DNA from: a virus
Taxonomy: Duplodnaviria > Caudoviricetes
Strand: one strand, 5' to 3'
DNA length: 64,000 nucleotides
Virus record (IMG/VR): IMGVR_UViG_2636415851_000001
Span: 1 to 64,000 of that record
The stretch's first letter is position 1, and every line of letters begins with the position of its first letter. Position numbers and translations under genes: made by a program. Positions 40,916 through 43,776 of the stretch are shown piece by piece. Under the pieces are notes generated by a model that worked only from the letters and a program-made list of their open reading frames with translations, searched no databases and was not told the origin of the DNA.

Positions 40916-41449
40916 TCAGGCGGCCTTCTGGATCTCCTCCGTCTTGGCGGCCGGTGCGGCCTTCGGAGCCTTGGCAGGTGCAGCGACGATCGGAGTCTTC
41001 GCCAGCGTCAAGGCGCCCTTGACAGCCTGCAGAACGCGCGGCGAACCGCCATTCTCCTCCAGTTTCTTGACGACGGACTCGAGGTACTTGACCTCGTCGA
41101 ATGCAGCCGCTGGCTTGCCCTTCGTGGCCTTTTCGTAGTTCGCCGGTGCGATTTCCATCGCTTGCGCCATGTCGGATTTCTTGCCCTTGGCAAACTCGAA
41201 AACGCGCGCCTTGTCGTCAAACTTGACCTTGCCGAAAGCGGTCGACCACGAAACCAGTCCGCGGCGATAGTTCGCCGGAGTGACAGCGTAAAGCGCGTTC
41301 AGGTACTTCGGATCATTGTGCAGCTCGACATGGTTCAATGCCGAATAGGCCAGCTGGTGCTCCTTTTCCGTGAACGTCGCGGCGGCCTTCACAAAGCCCT
41401 TGATTGCGTTGTTGAGCTTGGAACCGGTGAGAACAACAAACTTGGTCAT
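40916..41449 (-). CDS. First gene of the accessory operon; Lys/Ala-rich phage early protein
   Basis: MTKFVVLTG start after the motif and GGAG; C-terminal APAKAPKAAPAAK tail. Confidence 0.75.
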   Translation of the reverse strand: MTKFVVLTGSKLNNAIKGFVKAAATFTEKEHQLAYSALNHVELHNDPKYLNALYAVTPANYRRGLVSWSTAFGKVKFDDKARVFEFAKGKKSDMAQAMEIAPANYEKATKGKPAAAFDEVKYLESVVKKLEENGGSPRVLQAVKGALTLAKTPIVAAPAKAPKAAPAAKTEEIQKAA

Positions 41450-41535
41450 GATCTTAATCTCCATCGTTGGCATGATTGCCGGGTTAGTGCCGTTTGCACC
41501 TGAAAAGCCAAAAGAGGCTTTGCAGCTGGAAACGT

Positions 41536-41567
41536 GAAAAGGCCACCAGAGGGAGTCCGGTGGCCTT
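41536..41567 (-). terminator. Intrinsic terminator between the leader and the first gene
   Basis: AAGGCCACC-loop-GGTGGCCTT then T-tract on the minus strand; second small hairpin at 41504-41521. Confidence 0.65.
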
Positions 41568-41569
41568 AG

Positions 41570-42120
41570 AAACTTGTCGAATTTTTCGGTTTTCAATCGC
41601 TTGGATTGACCATGCCTGTATCGGTTGAGGTTTGCAGCACTGAAGCCAATGAGGCTTTGCCGAGTATCTTTCCGCCACCTACGGCATTTTCGCCGCTGTC
41701 GTGCTTCTGGCTATTCCTATGAAGCAAGTCCGTTGCTCCCTCAGTGCATGGTTACATGCTTTGCCAGTTCTCCCACCAACGATTGCCCAACACACTCAAC
41801 TTTGCAGTCTCGCATTGGATCGCTTTAGCCGGAACCTTCCCCGATACAGGTGATTTGTTGTCCGCTCCCTGTCGCGCGTCCTTCCCTATGTGCTGCAATC
41901 CGGCTTTGTCATGCCGAATCACCTCACGGTTGCCCTCTTCGTAACCGCGCTTTCCGTTGCTCCCTTTGCCTCTTCAATCCCTTGTCTCCACACTTGCAAA
42001 GCAAGTCACGAAACCAGTGCACCTAGAAGGCTAGGGCGGAAAACCGTCATCTTGTTTTCAAAGAACCGACGAAACCGACGAAGCCGGAACCGTCCAAAGC
42101 CCGAAACATTCGCGTTTCGT
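41570..42120 (-). ncRNA. Candidate large structured non-coding RNA or leader
   Basis: No credible ORF; nested long-range helices; flanked by a promoter and a terminator. Confidence 0.55.
42054..42066 (-). promoter_or_regulatory. boxA-like antitermination element
   Basis: GTTCTTTGAAAAC, preceded by hairpin CGAAAC-N6-GTTTCG (42102-42119). Confidence 0.6.
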
Positions 42121-42155
42121 TGTGAGCAAGATAATACGATACGAATTGAAAACAA
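42117..42155 (-). promoter_or_regulatory. Putative promoter of the accessory operon with a third operator-like site
   Basis: TTGTTT-N16-TATCTT; TCGTTG-N11-ATACGA matches the PL/PR palindrome spacing. Confidence 0.55.
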
Positions 42156-42820
42156 CCGGAAAAATACAGAAAATACCGTTTGGCCCGTTATCGCATTGAA
42201 ATTGCAGCAAATAAAAAATTCAAATCGTATCGCCTTTGCGTCGTCTCAGCTCATTACAGCTGGCCAAAAACAGGCCAGAAAATCGGGCAAATCGGATAGC
42301 CTAATTCGCTGAAAACAAACGATAAAAGGCGTTTGCTTTTGCCTCTGAGCTTGTCCCCGGCTTAGTGCCTGGCTCAATGCCTGGCTAACTCCCTGCCATG
42401 CTGGCCAAACTGGCCACCCATTGCCGGAGAAAACCGGTGGCGATTCTCCAGTGCACTCGCCCCAGAACAACCGCCACCAATCCCCGCAAAGGGAGAGAGG
42501 GAGAGGAGAGGAGAGAGGGGAAGGCGTGACAGCTGGCTATTGCGTGGAACAACGGAACGAGTCACACAGCATTCCAGAACGTCGGATTGCGCCTAGACGC
42601 CGCGACGCTTCATCCCCTCACCTGCTCACCTGAAGGCGTGCCGCTTGCGACTGGCCATCCCCGGCTAGACCTTTCGCCACGCCTTGCCGCTGGCCAGCTG
42701 GCTACCTGATGGCCATTGCCACCCATGCCGGACCATGCCGGACAAGGCGTTCCAGCGTCATTCAAAGCGAAAGAGCGTGAAAAGCCTTGCAAATCAAGGC
42801 GTTGAGAGGCCCCACGGGTA

Positions 42821-43010
42821 GGTTCTTCCGGAAGGGGGGCGGCCCACCGCGGGTCGGCGGCAGCGCAGTATTTGAGCGGTTCCGGGCTTTTCATTTCGAG
42901 GGTTCGGATTCGCGAAAAATTCCTGGCGAAGGTGGCGATGCGCGGGGAATGAATTTGCTGAAACCGCGCAACGAAATGGGGTGATCCCACGGGGCGGATA
43001 GAAATGATCT
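42821..43010 (+). other. Putative cos packaging site
   Basis: GGTTCTTCC (cosQ-like) then GGGCGGCCCACCGCGGGT, resembling lambda GGGCGGCGACCTCGCGGGT; GAAAT-type repeats downstream; upstream of a Nu1/GpA terminase. Confidence 0.6.
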
Positions 43011-43065
43011 TGCGCAGATCCCATCGCGCAGGGGCGAACTGTAGAATAATGCTTTCGTTTGAGGG

Positions 43066-43776
43066 GTGGCGAATACGATGCGTATCGTGAAGCGCGGCAC
43101 CAACCTGTTCCTGGTCCTGAGGATGAGGGACATGGCAAGGCACCTCAGCAACGATCGCGGGCGCACTGAGCTGCACCGTGGTGTGATCGACGCCGGTCGC
43201 CGGATGAAGACGATCAACCAGAAGACGGTCCAGCGGCAGATGGCGCTGAAGCCAGGCAACTACGGCAGCTATGTCGTCGCCGGCACGAGGGGCATCCCCC
43301 GCAAGAAGACACTCAGCTACGAGATCTTCGGCGTCAAAGGCGGCGCGAAGATCGAGCAGTATAAGGGGCTCATGTCGGTGAAGAGCAGCGGTCGTGCTGC
43401 CCGCCGCATGAACGCCGGCCGCGTAACTTCTGACCGAGGGACAGTGAGGTCGGGAGTGTGGAACAACCCGCGCGTCTTCAAACGGTCGTTCGCGACCGGG
43501 ACCGGGTTTTTCGCGATGCGGCCACCGAGCGCCGGGACGTCAAGTCGCGCTCCGAAAGCGCTGTGGACTTATGGCTCGAAGCCTGGGCAGCCCCGAGGGG
43601 CAGACGGGCGCTTCGCTCCTTCGGGAACGAGGTACGGCAAAGTCCGCCGGCTGTTCGGTCCTTCCCTGATGAAGGAGATCCCGAAGGATGATTCCTTGGA
43701 TGTCTTCCTGAGACACGGCCCGGCGTTGCTCGAGCGGCACGTCGGCAAAAGGCTCACCAAGCTGATGAGGTTCTGA
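43066..43776 (+). CDS. Basic protein, lambda gpZ-like minor tail/completion protein
   Basis: Highly basic; F.A......FF.R...RRLFGPSL pattern. Confidence 0.55.
   Translation: MANTMRIVKRGTNLFLVLRMRDMARHLSNDRGRTELHRGVIDAGRRMKTINQKTVQRQMALKPGNYGSYVVAGTRGIPRKKTLSYEIFGVKGGAKIEQYKGLMSVKSSGRAARRMNAGRVTSDRGTVRSGVWNNPRVFKRSFATGTGFFAMRPPSAGTSSRAPKALWTYGSKPGQPRGADGRFAPSGTRYGKVRRLFGPSLMKEIPKDDSLDVFLRHGPALLERHVGKRLTKLMRF

What the first reader, a model, noticed from the sequence alone, without database searches (positions are those of the whole stretch)
41570..42120. Candidate large (~0.55 kb) structured non-coding RNA heading the accessory operon
There is no credible ORF here, but nested perfect long-range complements are visible: CGGTTTTC/GAAAACCG (41587-94 with 42039-46, closing ~460 nt), CCTGTATCGG/CCGATACAGG (41615-24 with 41841-50), GTTGAG/CTCAAC (41624-29 with 41795-800) and GCACTGA/TCAGTGC (41637-43 with 41741-47). 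Local hairpins include AAGCC/GGCTT, GCTTC/GAAGC, GCATG/CATGC, CTTGC/GCAAG and CCTAG/CTAGG. The minus strand is purine- and GGA-rich and carries a 13-nt direct repeat, AGGGAGCAACGGA (41729-41741, 41953-41965). The region is bounded by a promoter and an intrinsic terminator. Inference: a multi-junction RNA acting as a cis antiterminator (put-like), a protein sponge, or a new large phage ncRNA class.
Basis: partly seen in the sequence, partly recalled or inferred. Interest (0 to 1): 0.82.

Follow-up and report, generated by a model that had tools for sequence, protein, structure and literature searches.

The report
Folded prophage leader RNA with boxA
A Rhizobium prophage starts its long early operon with a roughly 585-base non-coding, heavily folded RNA that opens with the host's ribosomal-RNA anti-termination signal (boxA), so it probably helps RNA polymerase run through stop signals, though this is untested.

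Summary
The stretch is more self-complementary and folds better than shuffles.

With 11 syntenic relatives from Rhizobium, Ensifer, Pseudochrobactrum, Brucella and uncultured viral contigs, the region proves to be a conserved structured RNA read from the MINUS strand, about 42121 to 41535. It has no conserved ORF and no Rfam match.

His four long-range helices do no better than shuffles on pairs that change on both sides. A long hairpin just 3' of a conserved word is strongly supported: 89.4% of cells paired against 74.2% shuffled, and 24 of 40 pairs with changes on both sides.

That word, GGTTCTTTGAAAAC, matches the rrn-leader boxA of Rhizobiales, 14 of 14 with one relative's own rrn leader.

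The order is operator-bearing early promoter, 5' hairpins, boxA, about 450 nt of folded RNA, terminator hairpin(s), then a co-oriented early gene block of at least 19 kb.

Best reading (0.55): a Nus/boxA-type processive antitermination leader. A stand-alone ncRNA is the main rival.

This scan already noted the same kind of boxA leader in other rhizobial prophages. I found no description in print.

The parts
42128..42156 (-). Candidate early (leftward) promoter: -35 GTTGTT (42156->42151), a 17-nt spacer holding an operator-like repeat or palindrome, and -10 TATCTT (42133->42128). The inferred start is about 42121.
   Evidence: Ten relatives were lined up on the invariant A.CGAA start. All show a TTG-type -35 (CTTGCG, TTGCCA, TTGTCA), a spacer of about 17 nt with an AATACG..CGTATT-type inverted repeat, and a TAnnnT-like -10 at the same distance. 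I read this by eye. The consensus scan did not flag it.
42102..42119 (-). 5'-terminal hairpin CGAAAC-GCGAAU-GUUUCG, upstream of boxA (boxB-like position, rrn order).
   Evidence: Sequence. Relatives have different hairpins at the same place, such as CCGAATG..CATTCGG, CGAAGC/GCTTCG and TATCG..CGATA (alignment).
42068..42092 (-). Second small hairpin, directly before boxA.
   Evidence: RNAalifold helices 1 and 2 of A5. Pair 32-53 is CG:4, GC:4, AU:1, GU:1. Coordinates mapped.
42054..42067 (-). boxA-like word GGTTCTTTGAAAAC.
   Evidence: Nearly invariant in the 12 aligned relatives. A strict form occurs on the sense strand 487-845 nt upstream of the first gene in 14 of 18 loci, with one-letter variants in 3 more, against a background of 0.08 per kb per strand. 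The own rrn leaders have GTTTTTTGACAAT 191 nt before the 16S gene in 3 of 3 operons. The rrn leader of G775 has GGTTCTTTGAAAAC, 14 of 14. The gamma-proteobacterial consensus is GYTCTTTAANA (PMC5725501, passages), which it matches 10 of 11 by my own reading.
41942..42049 (-). D1: a long irregular hairpin starting 4 nt after boxA. It has conserved internal-loop words (AGGUG.AC / GGGAUUGAA) and an apical hairpin at 42006-41992.
   Evidence: A5, 12 sequences, 40 pairs: 89.4% paired against 74.2% shuffled (0 of 500). 24 pairs change on both sides against 16.2 (0 of 500). Slid partners give 33.6-48.7%. Read as plus-strand RNA only 77.1% pair, and there are 63 G.U cells. Apical loops read UUCG or GCAA only on the minus strand (by eye). 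Single-sequence folds give a hairpin of like build in the distant loci L049 and L056, and a long extended hairpin directly after boxA in L052 and L057. Coordinates.
41899..41918 (-). P2: a hairpin with the conserved loop AUGACAAA and a covarying stem.
   Evidence: Single-sequence folds of 8 relatives. 7 of the 8 show different stems (UCGGC/GCCGA, AUCGC/GCGGU, CCGGCC/GGCCGG, CCGC/GCGG, CCGG/CCGG) around the same loop. CF080 has a different loop.
41860..41881 (-). P3: hairpin GGACGCGCG..CGGAC within the highly conserved word GGGGAAGGACGYGCGGCAAGGUGCGGA.
   Evidence: A6 helix 2: 93.8% paired, and pair 52-63 is CG:5, UA:3. The window itself has one non-pair in this helix.
41828..41857 (-). Highly conserved strand AAAUCACCUGUAUCGGGGAAGGUUCCGGC, the 5' side of the junction helices.
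   Evidence: Alignments. Helices 3-5 of A6 pair in 81-93% of cells, with few changes on both sides.
41680..41827 (-). Variable insert (expansion segment).
   Evidence: Gaps in 7-11 of 12 rows. In soil-metagenome contigs otherwise about 96-97% alike (by mismatch counts), 41719-41820 is replaced by 89 other letters. L015 and L027 have a short hairpin of their own there.
41610..41679 (-). D3: the conserved block GGUGGCGGAAAGAUA..GGCAAAG-hairpin-CUUCAGUGCUGCAACCUCAACCGAUACAGGCA.
   Evidence: Alignments. Helices 6-8 of A6.
41530..41567 (-). T1: a terminator-like hairpin (stem 41567->41539, about -19.9 kcal/mol) followed by UUUUCACGUUU.
   Evidence: Inverted repeat I15. My ad hoc scan finds such a hairpin plus U-tract on the sense strand in 10 of 15 loci. 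The other 5 (L027, L019, L049, L052, L056) fail it. I saw a GC-rich hairpin with a poor or absent U-tract at the same place in L027, L049, L052 and L056, by eye. I did not look in L019.
41504..41521 (-). Weak second hairpin AAAGCC-UCUUUU-GGCUUU after T1.
   Evidence: Sequence. The strict scan lists a second hairpin plus U-tract 29-38 nt after T1 in 7 of 15 loci (L012, L015, L017, L021, L025, L028, L040).
40916..41449 (-). First gene after the RNA: 177 aa, PHROG 1448, function unknown.
   Evidence: phrog_1448, E = 5.4e-17. No Pfam match. Distant relatives lie near genome ends of Pseudomonas and Rhizobium phages; I take these phages to be T7-like from memory.
42146..42174 (+). Candidate rightward promoter, TTGAAA-17-GAAAAT, back to back with the leftward one.
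   Evidence: Consensus scan. Relatives keep TTGAAC/TTAAAC plus 17 nt plus an A/T-rich hexamer at the same place (by eye).

Best explanation
The region is the roughly 585-nt untranslated, highly structured 5' leader of the prophage's leftward early operon. It is transcribed from the minus strand, starting at a repressor-controlled promoter at about 42121.

Its 5' end copies the layout of a rhizobial rRNA-operon leader: small hairpins, then boxA. The inferred mechanism is as follows.
1. boxA in the nascent RNA recruits host NusB and S10, and with them the Nus antitermination complex, to RNA polymerase.
2. The modified polymerase resists Rho on about 600 nt of untranslated RNA.
3. It then reads through the terminator hairpin(s) at 41567-41504 into a block of at least 19 kb of co-oriented early genes.

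The about 450 nt of conserved folded RNA behind boxA (a long hairpin D1, then a multi-helix domain with a variable expansion segment) is the phage-specific part of the signal. It stands where lambda has boxB/N and HK022 has put. It would stabilise or extend the complex without an N protein.

Shown here: conservation, the strand, covarying helices, boxA identity with rrn leaders, and the gene layout. Inferred: Nus recruitment, read-through, and any role for the large fold.
For: Real RNA on the minus strand:
- 11 syntenic relatives keep the region at about 67-75% identity over most conserved blocks, like the flanking genes.
- D1 covaries: 89.4% of cells paired against 74.2% shuffled, 24 of 40 pairs changed on both sides, 0 of 500 shuffles reach these, and slid partners give 33.6-48.7%.
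- The 3' domains covary: 85.5% against 77.0%, and 14 pairs against 5.5, 0 of 500.
- The same D1 pairs read on the plus strand pair in only 77.1% of cells.
- UUCG and GNRA loops, and the U-tract after T1, fit the minus strand only.
- No conserved open frame.

boxA:
- GGTTCTTTGAAAAC is nearly invariant.
- A strict form is found upstream of the first gene in 14 of 18 loci, plus 3 one-letter variants.
- It equals the rrn-leader word of G775 (14 of 14) and resembles that of the own host in the same hairpin-then-boxA context.
- The host encodes NusB and Rho.

Leader position:
- A promoter-like -35/-10 with an operator-type repeat sits at a fixed distance from the invariant 5' A.CGAA in 10 of 10 relatives (by eye).
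- The consensus scan found no promoter-like site on the minus strand between T1 and the first gene.
- The genes to the left, down to at least 22521, are co-oriented. They include phage ATPase, DnaN-like, PAPS-reductase-like and methyltransferase families.

Literature:
- boxA is essential for, and sufficient to prompt, the rrn antitermination complex. That complex blocks Rho and interferes with intrinsic termination. boxA also precedes suhB and CRISPR operons (PMC13753749, passages).
- Large antiterminator RNAs head long operons of conjugative elements (PMC8191782, abstract).
Against: - There is no expression data. No RNA run holds the stretch. The laid 'metatranscriptomic' runs give contigs of 5-47 kb that run through the region beside short ones, so they look like DNA.
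- No transcript start, end or read-through has been observed.
- The promoter is read by eye and fails the E. coli-type consensus scan.
- In E. coli, as I recall, the rrn complex works mainly against Rho and poorly against strong intrinsic terminators. One or two terminator hairpins right after the RNA fit a separately terminated ncRNA equally well.
- The own host's rrn boxA (GTTTTTTGACAAT) differs from the phage word at 3 of 13 positions.
- The local alignment of the phage leader to the own rrn leader scores 31, against 19.5 +/- 2.6 for shuffles, but the best shuffle also reached 31.
- The large fold has no demonstrated link to antitermination.
- The sample is small (12 aligned sequences, several of them close kin), and the structure was derived from the same alignment on which it was counted.
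Confidence: 0.55

Rival explanations
1. It is a stand-alone ncRNA of about 585 nt that ends at T1/T2 and acts in trans, for example as a protein decoy or sponge, an anti-defence RNA, or a regulator of phage or host mRNAs. In this reading boxA only protects this long untranslated transcript from Rho, as reported for CRISPR arrays.
For: - A terminator-like hairpin with a U-tract follows the RNA in 10 of 15 loci. The strict scan lists a second one 29-38 nt later in 7 of 15.
- The strongly conserved primary-sequence blocks and conserved loops, such as AUGACAAA, look like binding sites.
- The modular variable insert suggests fast evolution.
- boxA upstream of CRISPR operons is in print (PMC13753749, passage).
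Against: - No promoter-like site for the downstream genes was found after T1. Only 85-95 nt separate T1 from the first start codon in the window and in G033.
- In 5 of 15 loci the hairpin at this place lacks a good U-tract, so the RNA would run on into the mRNA.
- No target or partner has been identified.
- The 13-nt repeat and GGA-richness that suggested a sponge are not conserved.
Confidence: 0.27
2. It is a put-like, factor-independent antiterminator. The folded RNA itself binds RNA polymerase in cis and makes it terminator-resistant, and the boxA resemblance is incidental.
For: - The position is the same as put: just after an early promoter and before terminators.
- The RNA is conserved and structured.
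- putRNA alone performs anti-pausing and antitermination on E. coli RNA polymerase (PMC9378689, abstract).
Against: - No sequence or model similarity to any Rfam family.
- The size is far above the two stem-loops of about 70 nt that I recall for put.
- The most conserved word across the widest set of relatives is the boxA word, which is shared with rrn leaders. That is hard to call incidental.
Confidence: 0.1
3. It is a DNA-level element (origin, packaging site or a field of regulator binding sites) or a decayed gene, not an RNA.
For: - It lies in a 1.6-kb ORF-poor, lower-G+C gap between divergent gene blocks next to the terminase genes.
- Operator-like palindromes lie at its right edge.
Against: - Compensatory changes occur in many helices, and G.U pairs and tetraloops fit one strand only. 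DNA sites do not require this.
- Indels are not in threes and no frame is kept open.
Confidence: 0.05

Closest known systems
rrn operon leader antitermination signal (boxB hairpin, boxA, boxC; NusA/B/E/G, SuhB, S4)
   Same: - Hairpin(s) then boxA just after the promoter.
- The boxA word is identical (14 of 14) to the rrn-leader word of a related Rhizobiaceae genome and close to the own host's.
- It is followed by a long untranslated structured RNA.
- An HMM of six rrn leaders also weakly matches the 3' arm of D1 in two relatives (E = 0.002 and 0.0099).
   Different: - It heads protein-coding phage genes, not rRNA.
- The downstream fold is unrelated to rRNA (no Rfam match).
- It is followed by terminator hairpins.
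- The rrn-leader block AAGAAAGAGAAACGTGG is not clearly kept.
Lambdoid nut sites (boxA plus boxB, with N protein and host Nus factors)
   Same: A boxA followed a few bases later by a hairpin, placed after a repressor-controlled early promoter and before terminators. NusB:NusE binding to boxA is the key step (PMC2800207, abstract).
   Different: - The hairpin is about 108 nt, against the 15 nt I recall for boxB.
- Another 350 nt of conserved folds follow it.
- No N-like gene was recognised: the first gene is PHROG 1448.
- The host is an alpha-proteobacterium.
HK022 put antiterminator RNA
   Same: A cis-acting structured RNA at the head of a phage early operon that suppresses termination (PMC9378689, abstract).
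   Different: By that abstract, put acts alone on RNA polymerase; its small size and lack of boxA are my recollection. This element is about 585 nt and has a boxA. No similarity was detected.
conAn bipartite antitermination system of Gram-positive conjugative plasmids
   Same: A large RNA element at the start of a very long operon of a mobile element that exerts antitermination (PMC8191782, abstract).
   Different: conAn needs its own protein, ConAn1, as a processivity factor, and occurs in Gram-positive plasmids. No boxA is described in the abstract. No sequence relation was tested.
boxA upstream of CRISPR arrays and suhB
   Same: boxA placed ahead of long untranslated or leader RNA outside rRNA operons (PMC13753749, passage; PMC5725501, passages).
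   Different: As I recall, those are bare boxA words without a large conserved fold. They are described in gamma-proteobacterial chromosomes, not in phages of alpha-proteobacteria.

Membership tests
boxA (NusB/S10 binding word of antitermination leaders) | Sequence match to the boxA consensus and to the host clade's own rrn-leader boxA. | tested here: met
   GTTCTTTGAAA against GYTCTTTAANA (PMC5725501): 10 of 11 by my own reading. 14 of 14 with the rrn leader of G775, and 10 of 13 with the own host's GTTTTTTGACAAT.
boxA (NusB/S10 binding word of antitermination leaders) | Lies in the transcript shortly after a promoter, on the sense strand. | tested here: inconclusive
   A promoter-like -35/-10 about 55 nt upstream is conserved in position in 10 of 10 relatives, by eye. 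The consensus scan does not flag it, and no transcript data exist.
boxA (NusB/S10 binding word of antitermination leaders) | Binds NusB-S10 and confers resistance to termination. | not testable with these tools
   This needs binding and read-through assays. The host does encode NusB and Rho.
rrn-type leader (boxB-boxA-boxC) | Hairpin upstream of boxA. | tested here: met
   Hairpins at 42119-42102 and 42092-42068. Relatives have different sequences that still pair.
rrn-type leader (boxB-boxA-boxC) | The conserved block downstream of boxA that rhizobial rrn leaders share (AAGAAAGAGAAACGTGG). | tested here: inconclusive
   The HMM of six rrn leaders hits the D1 3' arm in L012 (E = 0.002) and L015 (E = 0.0099) only. 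In the window it hits just boxA (E = 0.011).
Lambda-type nut site | boxA followed by a short boxB hairpin bound by a phage N protein. | tested here: not met
   The hairpin after boxA is about 108 nt. No N-like protein was recognised among the neighbours scanned: PHROG and Pfam on 8 proteins, and PHROG on 10 more.
HK022 put RNA | Two adjacent stem-loops of about 70 nt in all, acting without boxA or Nus factors (size recalled; factor independence from the abstract). | tested here: not met
   The element is about 585 nt with more than 8 helices and a boxA. Factor independence is not testable here.
Any Rfam 15 family | Match at the family's gathering score. | tested here: not met
   0 matches in the window and in 12 homologous loci. 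At E <= 10, only 3 chance-level matches in 41000-43200.

The most novel reading that the evidence does not exclude
This is a third route to phage antitermination, distinct from N/nut and from put. A phage-encoded mimic of a pre-rRNA leader (hairpins, boxA, and a long helix whose 3' arm resembles rrn-leader sequence) assembles the host's complete rRNA antitermination and RNA-chaperone complex on polymerase at the early promoter. The 450-nt fold stays tethered to the polymerase, so that the complex also overrides intrinsic terminators across a 19-kb operon, with no phage protein involved. A bolder variant is that the released RNA also titrates Nus factors or S4/S10 away from host rRNA synthesis.
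Probability: 0.2. Interest if true: 0.8.

Novelty: new variant of a known kind. Interest (0 to 1): 0.6.

Why it matters
Processive antitermination in phages is understood almost wholly from E. coli lambdoids: N/nut, Q/qut and put.

Here a well-supported large RNA family, not in Rfam, sits at the head of the early operon of temperate phages of Rhizobium, Ensifer, Pseudochrobactrum and Brucella/Ochrobactrum. It carries the hosts' own rRNA boxA.

If it works as proposed, it would show that phages of alpha-proteobacteria borrow the rRNA antitermination machinery through an RNA alone. It would also give a tractable case for asking what a large RNA fold adds to a boxA.

It also bears on annotation. 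A 1.6-kb 'empty' gap in these prophages is a functional RNA gene or leader plus divergent promoters.

Tried and rejected
**Expression.** The look-up of sequencing runs listed no RNA holder. Four runs labelled metatranscriptomic gave contigs of 5-47 kb that run through the region, beside short ones, with flat per-contig depth. They look like DNA and say nothing on expression.

**More relatives.**
- The DNA search of the phage collection found nothing.
- The protein-pattern scan of metagenome contigs found no relative.
- The boxA-pattern scan of metagenome contigs gave 9 loci. All matched only the pattern or little more, and none encodes a relative of any of the five flanking proteins searched. 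L035 scored 29.1 bits with model R2 but lies inside a 745-aa ORF.
- L024, from the viral scan, lies inside an 815-aa ORF.
- G661, G666 and G711, from the family-wide DNA search, show no similarity outside the short match, no flanking-gene relatives, and sequence that I read as coding by eye.
- L052, L054 and L055 have the first gene, but the D1 model finds no match in them at E <= 1. By single-sequence fold L052 still has boxA and a hairpin.

**Coding.** No frame is kept open across relatives. The loop AUG of P2 has an SD-like word only in the window (by eye), so I dropped a leader-peptide reading.

**Antiterminator/terminator switch.** I looked by eye for an upstream segment able to pair with the 5' arm of T1. 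GGUGGC fits in the window only, so I rejected it.

**13-nt repeat as an RNA-immunity pair of the P4 CI or P1 c4 kind.** The repeat is not conserved, so I rejected it.

**Second boxA for the rightward operon.** None was found in the window.

**Similarity of the whole leader to the own rrn leader.** Only the boxA context aligns. The score is 31, and the best shuffle also reached 31.

**Literature.** Searches (terms: boxA, prophage, Rhizobium, Sinorhizobium, antitermination, leader RNA, HK022, put RNA) turned up no description of this RNA. Supplements were not opened.
Full report
**What is at the coordinates.** The window is a Rhizobium chromosome segment carrying a prophage; the genus name comes from relatives' record titles. 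The finding lies in an ORF-poor gap.
- On its left is a minus-strand gene at 40916-41449: 177 aa, PHROG 1448, function unknown.
- On its right are a plus-strand 236-aa ORF, the small terminase (PHROG 57) and a 689-aa ORF that I read as the large terminase.
- G+C drops from about 0.60-0.70 to 0.42-0.55 across the gap, and the plus strand is C/T-rich.

The stretch has more inverted-repeat words than 300 dinucleotide shuffles: 8-mers 10 against 2.36 (1 of 300), and 6-mers 74 against 37.9 (0 of 300). The single 10-mer is unremarkable (29 of 300). Both strands fold better than shuffles, with z = -3.62 on the minus strand and -3.99 on the plus strand. Rfam 15 has nothing at gathering score in the window, and only chance-level matches at E <= 10.

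**Relatives.**
- The stretch is single-copy in its genome.
- In the genus, 2 of 83 other genomes have it at E <= 1e-5.
- A family-wide DNA search of 400 other genomes added one true relative, G775, and three chance hits.
- Scans of viral and genome contig collections, using the neighbouring protein or conserved words, added loci from Rhizobium sp. CF080, Ensifer, Pseudochrobactrum, Brucella tritici and uncultured viral contigs.
- Metagenome scans added none.
- Wherever enough flank was fetched, the true relatives keep the order first gene, gap, 236-aa ORF, terminase.
- Inside the gap, most conserved blocks at 41536-42090 are about 67-75% identical, like the flanking genes. The rest of the gap is conserved only in islands at 42558-42596 and 42790-42915.

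**Which strand, and is it RNA?** I aligned twelve sequences in the minus orientation.
- Directly after a nearly invariant word, RNAalifold finds a long irregular hairpin, D1 (window 42049-42002 with 41996-41942).
  - Of its 40 pairs, 24 show changes on both sides.
  - 89.4% of cells pair, against 74.2% in shuffles (0 of 500 reach it) and 33.6-48.7% when partners are slid by one to three columns.
  - The alignment was made by MAFFT and not fitted to a structure, although the structure was derived from that same alignment.
- Read as plus-strand RNA, the same pairs hold in only 77.1% of cells, because 63 cells are G.U.
- The apical hairpin (42006-41992) has a different stem in nearly every relative. 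Its G.U pairs and its UUCG or GCAA loops make sense only on the minus strand (by eye).
- The 3' half is supported more modestly on 8 sequences: 85.5% against 77.0%, and 14 pairs with double changes against 5.5, 0 of 500.
- A further hairpin, P2 (41918-41899), keeps the loop AUGACAAA over different stems in 7 of 8 folded relatives.
- No reading frame stays open across relatives.
- None of 12 homologous loci matches Rfam.

I conclude that this is a genuine structured RNA family read from the minus strand.

On the same 12-sequence alignment his four long-range helices pair in 68.3% of cells against 64.5% shuffled. Five pairs show double changes against 5.1, and 353 of 500 shuffles reach that. His cell count (15 against 8.1, 2 of 500) and covariation score (0.158 against 0.122, 1 of 500) do stand above the shuffles, but far less than for D1.
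- The partners of helices 3 and 4 lie in a segment (41680-41827) that most relatives lack or replace. In near-identical soil-metagenome contigs, 41719-41820 is swapped for 89 other letters.
- Helix 1 uses the strand that D1 pairs elsewhere with covariation.
- The 10-bp helix 2 joins two very conserved words. It cannot be judged, and most relatives carry a mismatch in it.
- The 13-nt repeat is specific to this window.

**The conserved word is boxA.**
- The own genome's three rrn operons carry GTTTTTTGACAAT 191 nt before the 16S gene. It follows a hairpin, in the context cgtcgGTTTTTTGACAA. The phage has cgtcgGTTCTTTGAAAA.
- An alignment of rrn leaders from six Rhizobiales genomes shows this word as part of the most conserved leader block. 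In G775 it reads GGTTCTTTGAAAAC, identical to the phage word over 14 bases.
- The published gamma-proteobacterial consensus is GYTCTTTAANA (PMC5725501, passages).
- Across 18 distinct loci that encode the first gene, a strict form of the word lies on the sense strand 487-845 nt upstream in 14. One-letter variants occur in 3 more. L055, with only 631 nt of upstream sequence, has none. Background is 0.08 per kb per strand.
- In the distant loci L049 and L056, single-sequence folds give a hairpin of like build with the same internal-loop words after boxA, although the rest differs. L052 and L057 fold into a long extended hairpin there without those words.
- A covariance model of boxA plus D1 finds one site in the own genome.
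- An HMM of the rrn leaders also weakly matches the 3' arm of D1 in two relatives (E = 0.002 and 0.0099). This hints, no more, that the phage leader descends from or mimics an rrn leader.

**Layout.** Lined up on the invariant 5' A.CGAA (42121-42116), ten relatives show three features at fixed distance. These are a TTG-type -35, a spacer of about 17 nt holding an inverted or direct repeat of the AATACG..CGTATT kind (operator-like), and a TAnnnT-like -10. In the window these are GTTGTT at 42156->42151 and TATCTT at 42133->42128. I read this by eye, and the E. coli-type scan did not flag it.

A rightward promoter-like site (42146-42174) sits back to back with it. The RNA then runs as follows:
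1. A hairpin at 42119-42102.
2. A hairpin at 42092-42068.
3. boxA at 42067-42054.
4. D1, P2 and P3.
5. A junction with the variable insert.
6. D3.
7. A terminator-like hairpin T1 (41567-41539, about -19.9 kcal/mol, then UUUUCACGUUU).
8. A weak second hairpin.

T1-like hairpins with a U-tract occur in 10 of 15 loci by my ad hoc criteria. Of the five that fail, four keep a GC-rich hairpin with a poor U-tract by eye; I did not check L019. No promoter-like site was found between T1 and the first start codon.

To the left, co-oriented genes continue to at least 22521. They include PHROG families for an ATPase, a DnaN-like clamp, a PAPS-reductase-like enzyme and a DNA methyltransferase. Distant relatives of the first gene lie near genome ends in Pseudomonas and Rhizobium phages; I take these phages to be T7-like from memory.

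**Mechanism.** The layout is repressor-type promoter, hairpins, boxA, large fold, terminator(s), long operon. That is the layout of an antitermination leader. The literature statements I rely on are these.
- boxA is essential for, and sufficient to prompt, formation of the rrn antitermination complex. That complex blocks Rho and interferes with intrinsic termination. boxA also precedes suhB and CRISPR operons (PMC13753749, passages).
- NusB:NusE binding to boxA is the key step in lambda N antitermination as well (PMC2800207, abstract in the listing).

The host encodes NusB and Rho. I therefore favour a Nus/boxA-dependent processive antitermination leader (0.55). The about 450 nt of fold would be the phage-specific component, standing where lambda uses boxB/N and HK022 uses put (PMC9378689, abstract). 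It is comparable in concept to the large antiterminator RNA of conAn systems (PMC8191782, abstract).

What is shown is conservation, the strand, the helices, boxA identity and gene order. Nus recruitment, read-through and the role of the fold are inferred.

The main rival (0.27) is a separately terminated ncRNA that carries boxA only to escape Rho. The terminator hairpins fit it, while the missing downstream promoter and the weak U-tracts in distant relatives count against it. A factor-independent put-like RNA (0.10) and a DNA-level element (0.05) are less likely.

**Novelty.** I found no description in Rfam or in three full-text searches. This scan has already reported what looks like the same kind, probably the same family, of boxA-bearing leader RNA in other rhizobial prophages: e1-5874234, e1-5842514, e1-5897222 and e1-5897233. 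Those are unchecked AI notes and I do not count them as support. I class the finding as a new variant of a known kind, boxA-based antitermination leaders, built on a new RNA family.

Noticed in passing
window 41904-41913 (-) and 41441-41450 (-): The conserved P2 loop CAUGACAAAG resembles the start of the first gene, CAUGACCAAG (M-T-K), which is CAUGGCAAAG (M-A-K) in relatives. With one mismatch the window has 4 matches against 2.7 expected (31 of 100 shuffles reach 4), so this may be chance. It could also be a shared protein or ribosome binding word.
   Followed up: partly
window 41455-41485 (-): A small hairpin GCCA-AUCA-UGGC sits just before the Shine-Dalgarno sequence of the first gene and is conserved in relatives. 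Earlier notes of this scan report about 15 such hairpin-SD motifs along the early operon.
   Followed up: no
window 42134-42150 and homologous places in L011, L012, L027, L040, L049: Operator-like inverted repeats (ATACG-AAA-CGTAT, AATACG-N7-CGTATT, TCGTAC-N5-GTACGA) lie in the spacer of the candidate early promoter and overlap the -35 of the divergent rightward promoter. The repressor that would bind them was not identified.
   Followed up: partly
window 42558-42596 and 42790-42915 (+): Two further conserved non-coding islands (80-92% identity in relatives) lie between the divergent promoters and the 236-aa ORF and terminase genes. They could be a late-operon leader or a packaging (cos/pac) site.
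   Followed up: no
window 42490-42525 (+); also L049 2116-2170 and L056 2001-2070 (opposite sense): A long polypurine (GGAGA-type) tract recurs at a similar place upstream of the early promoter in distant relatives.
   Followed up: no
L012 2235-2553, L015 3700-4000, L021 3680-4000: Some relatives carry about 270 extra bases between the terminator hairpins and the first gene. These hold a small ORF, beginning M-D-F-E-T-A-M-E in L021, which the window lacks.
   Followed up: no
L058 463-486 (own rrn leader): The host rrn leader has a second boxA-like word, TCTTTGAAGAAGACAAGTGACGG, about 70 nt after the first. It resembles the phage TCTTTGAAAACAAGATGACGG, but it is not conserved in the six-genome rrn alignment.
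   Followed up: partly
window 40916-41449 (-): The PHROG 1448 protein accompanies the RNA in every locus found. Its distant relatives lie near genome ends of Pseudomonas and Rhizobium phages that I take to be T7-like. That suggests a host-takeover or anti-defence role, which is untested.
   Followed up: partly
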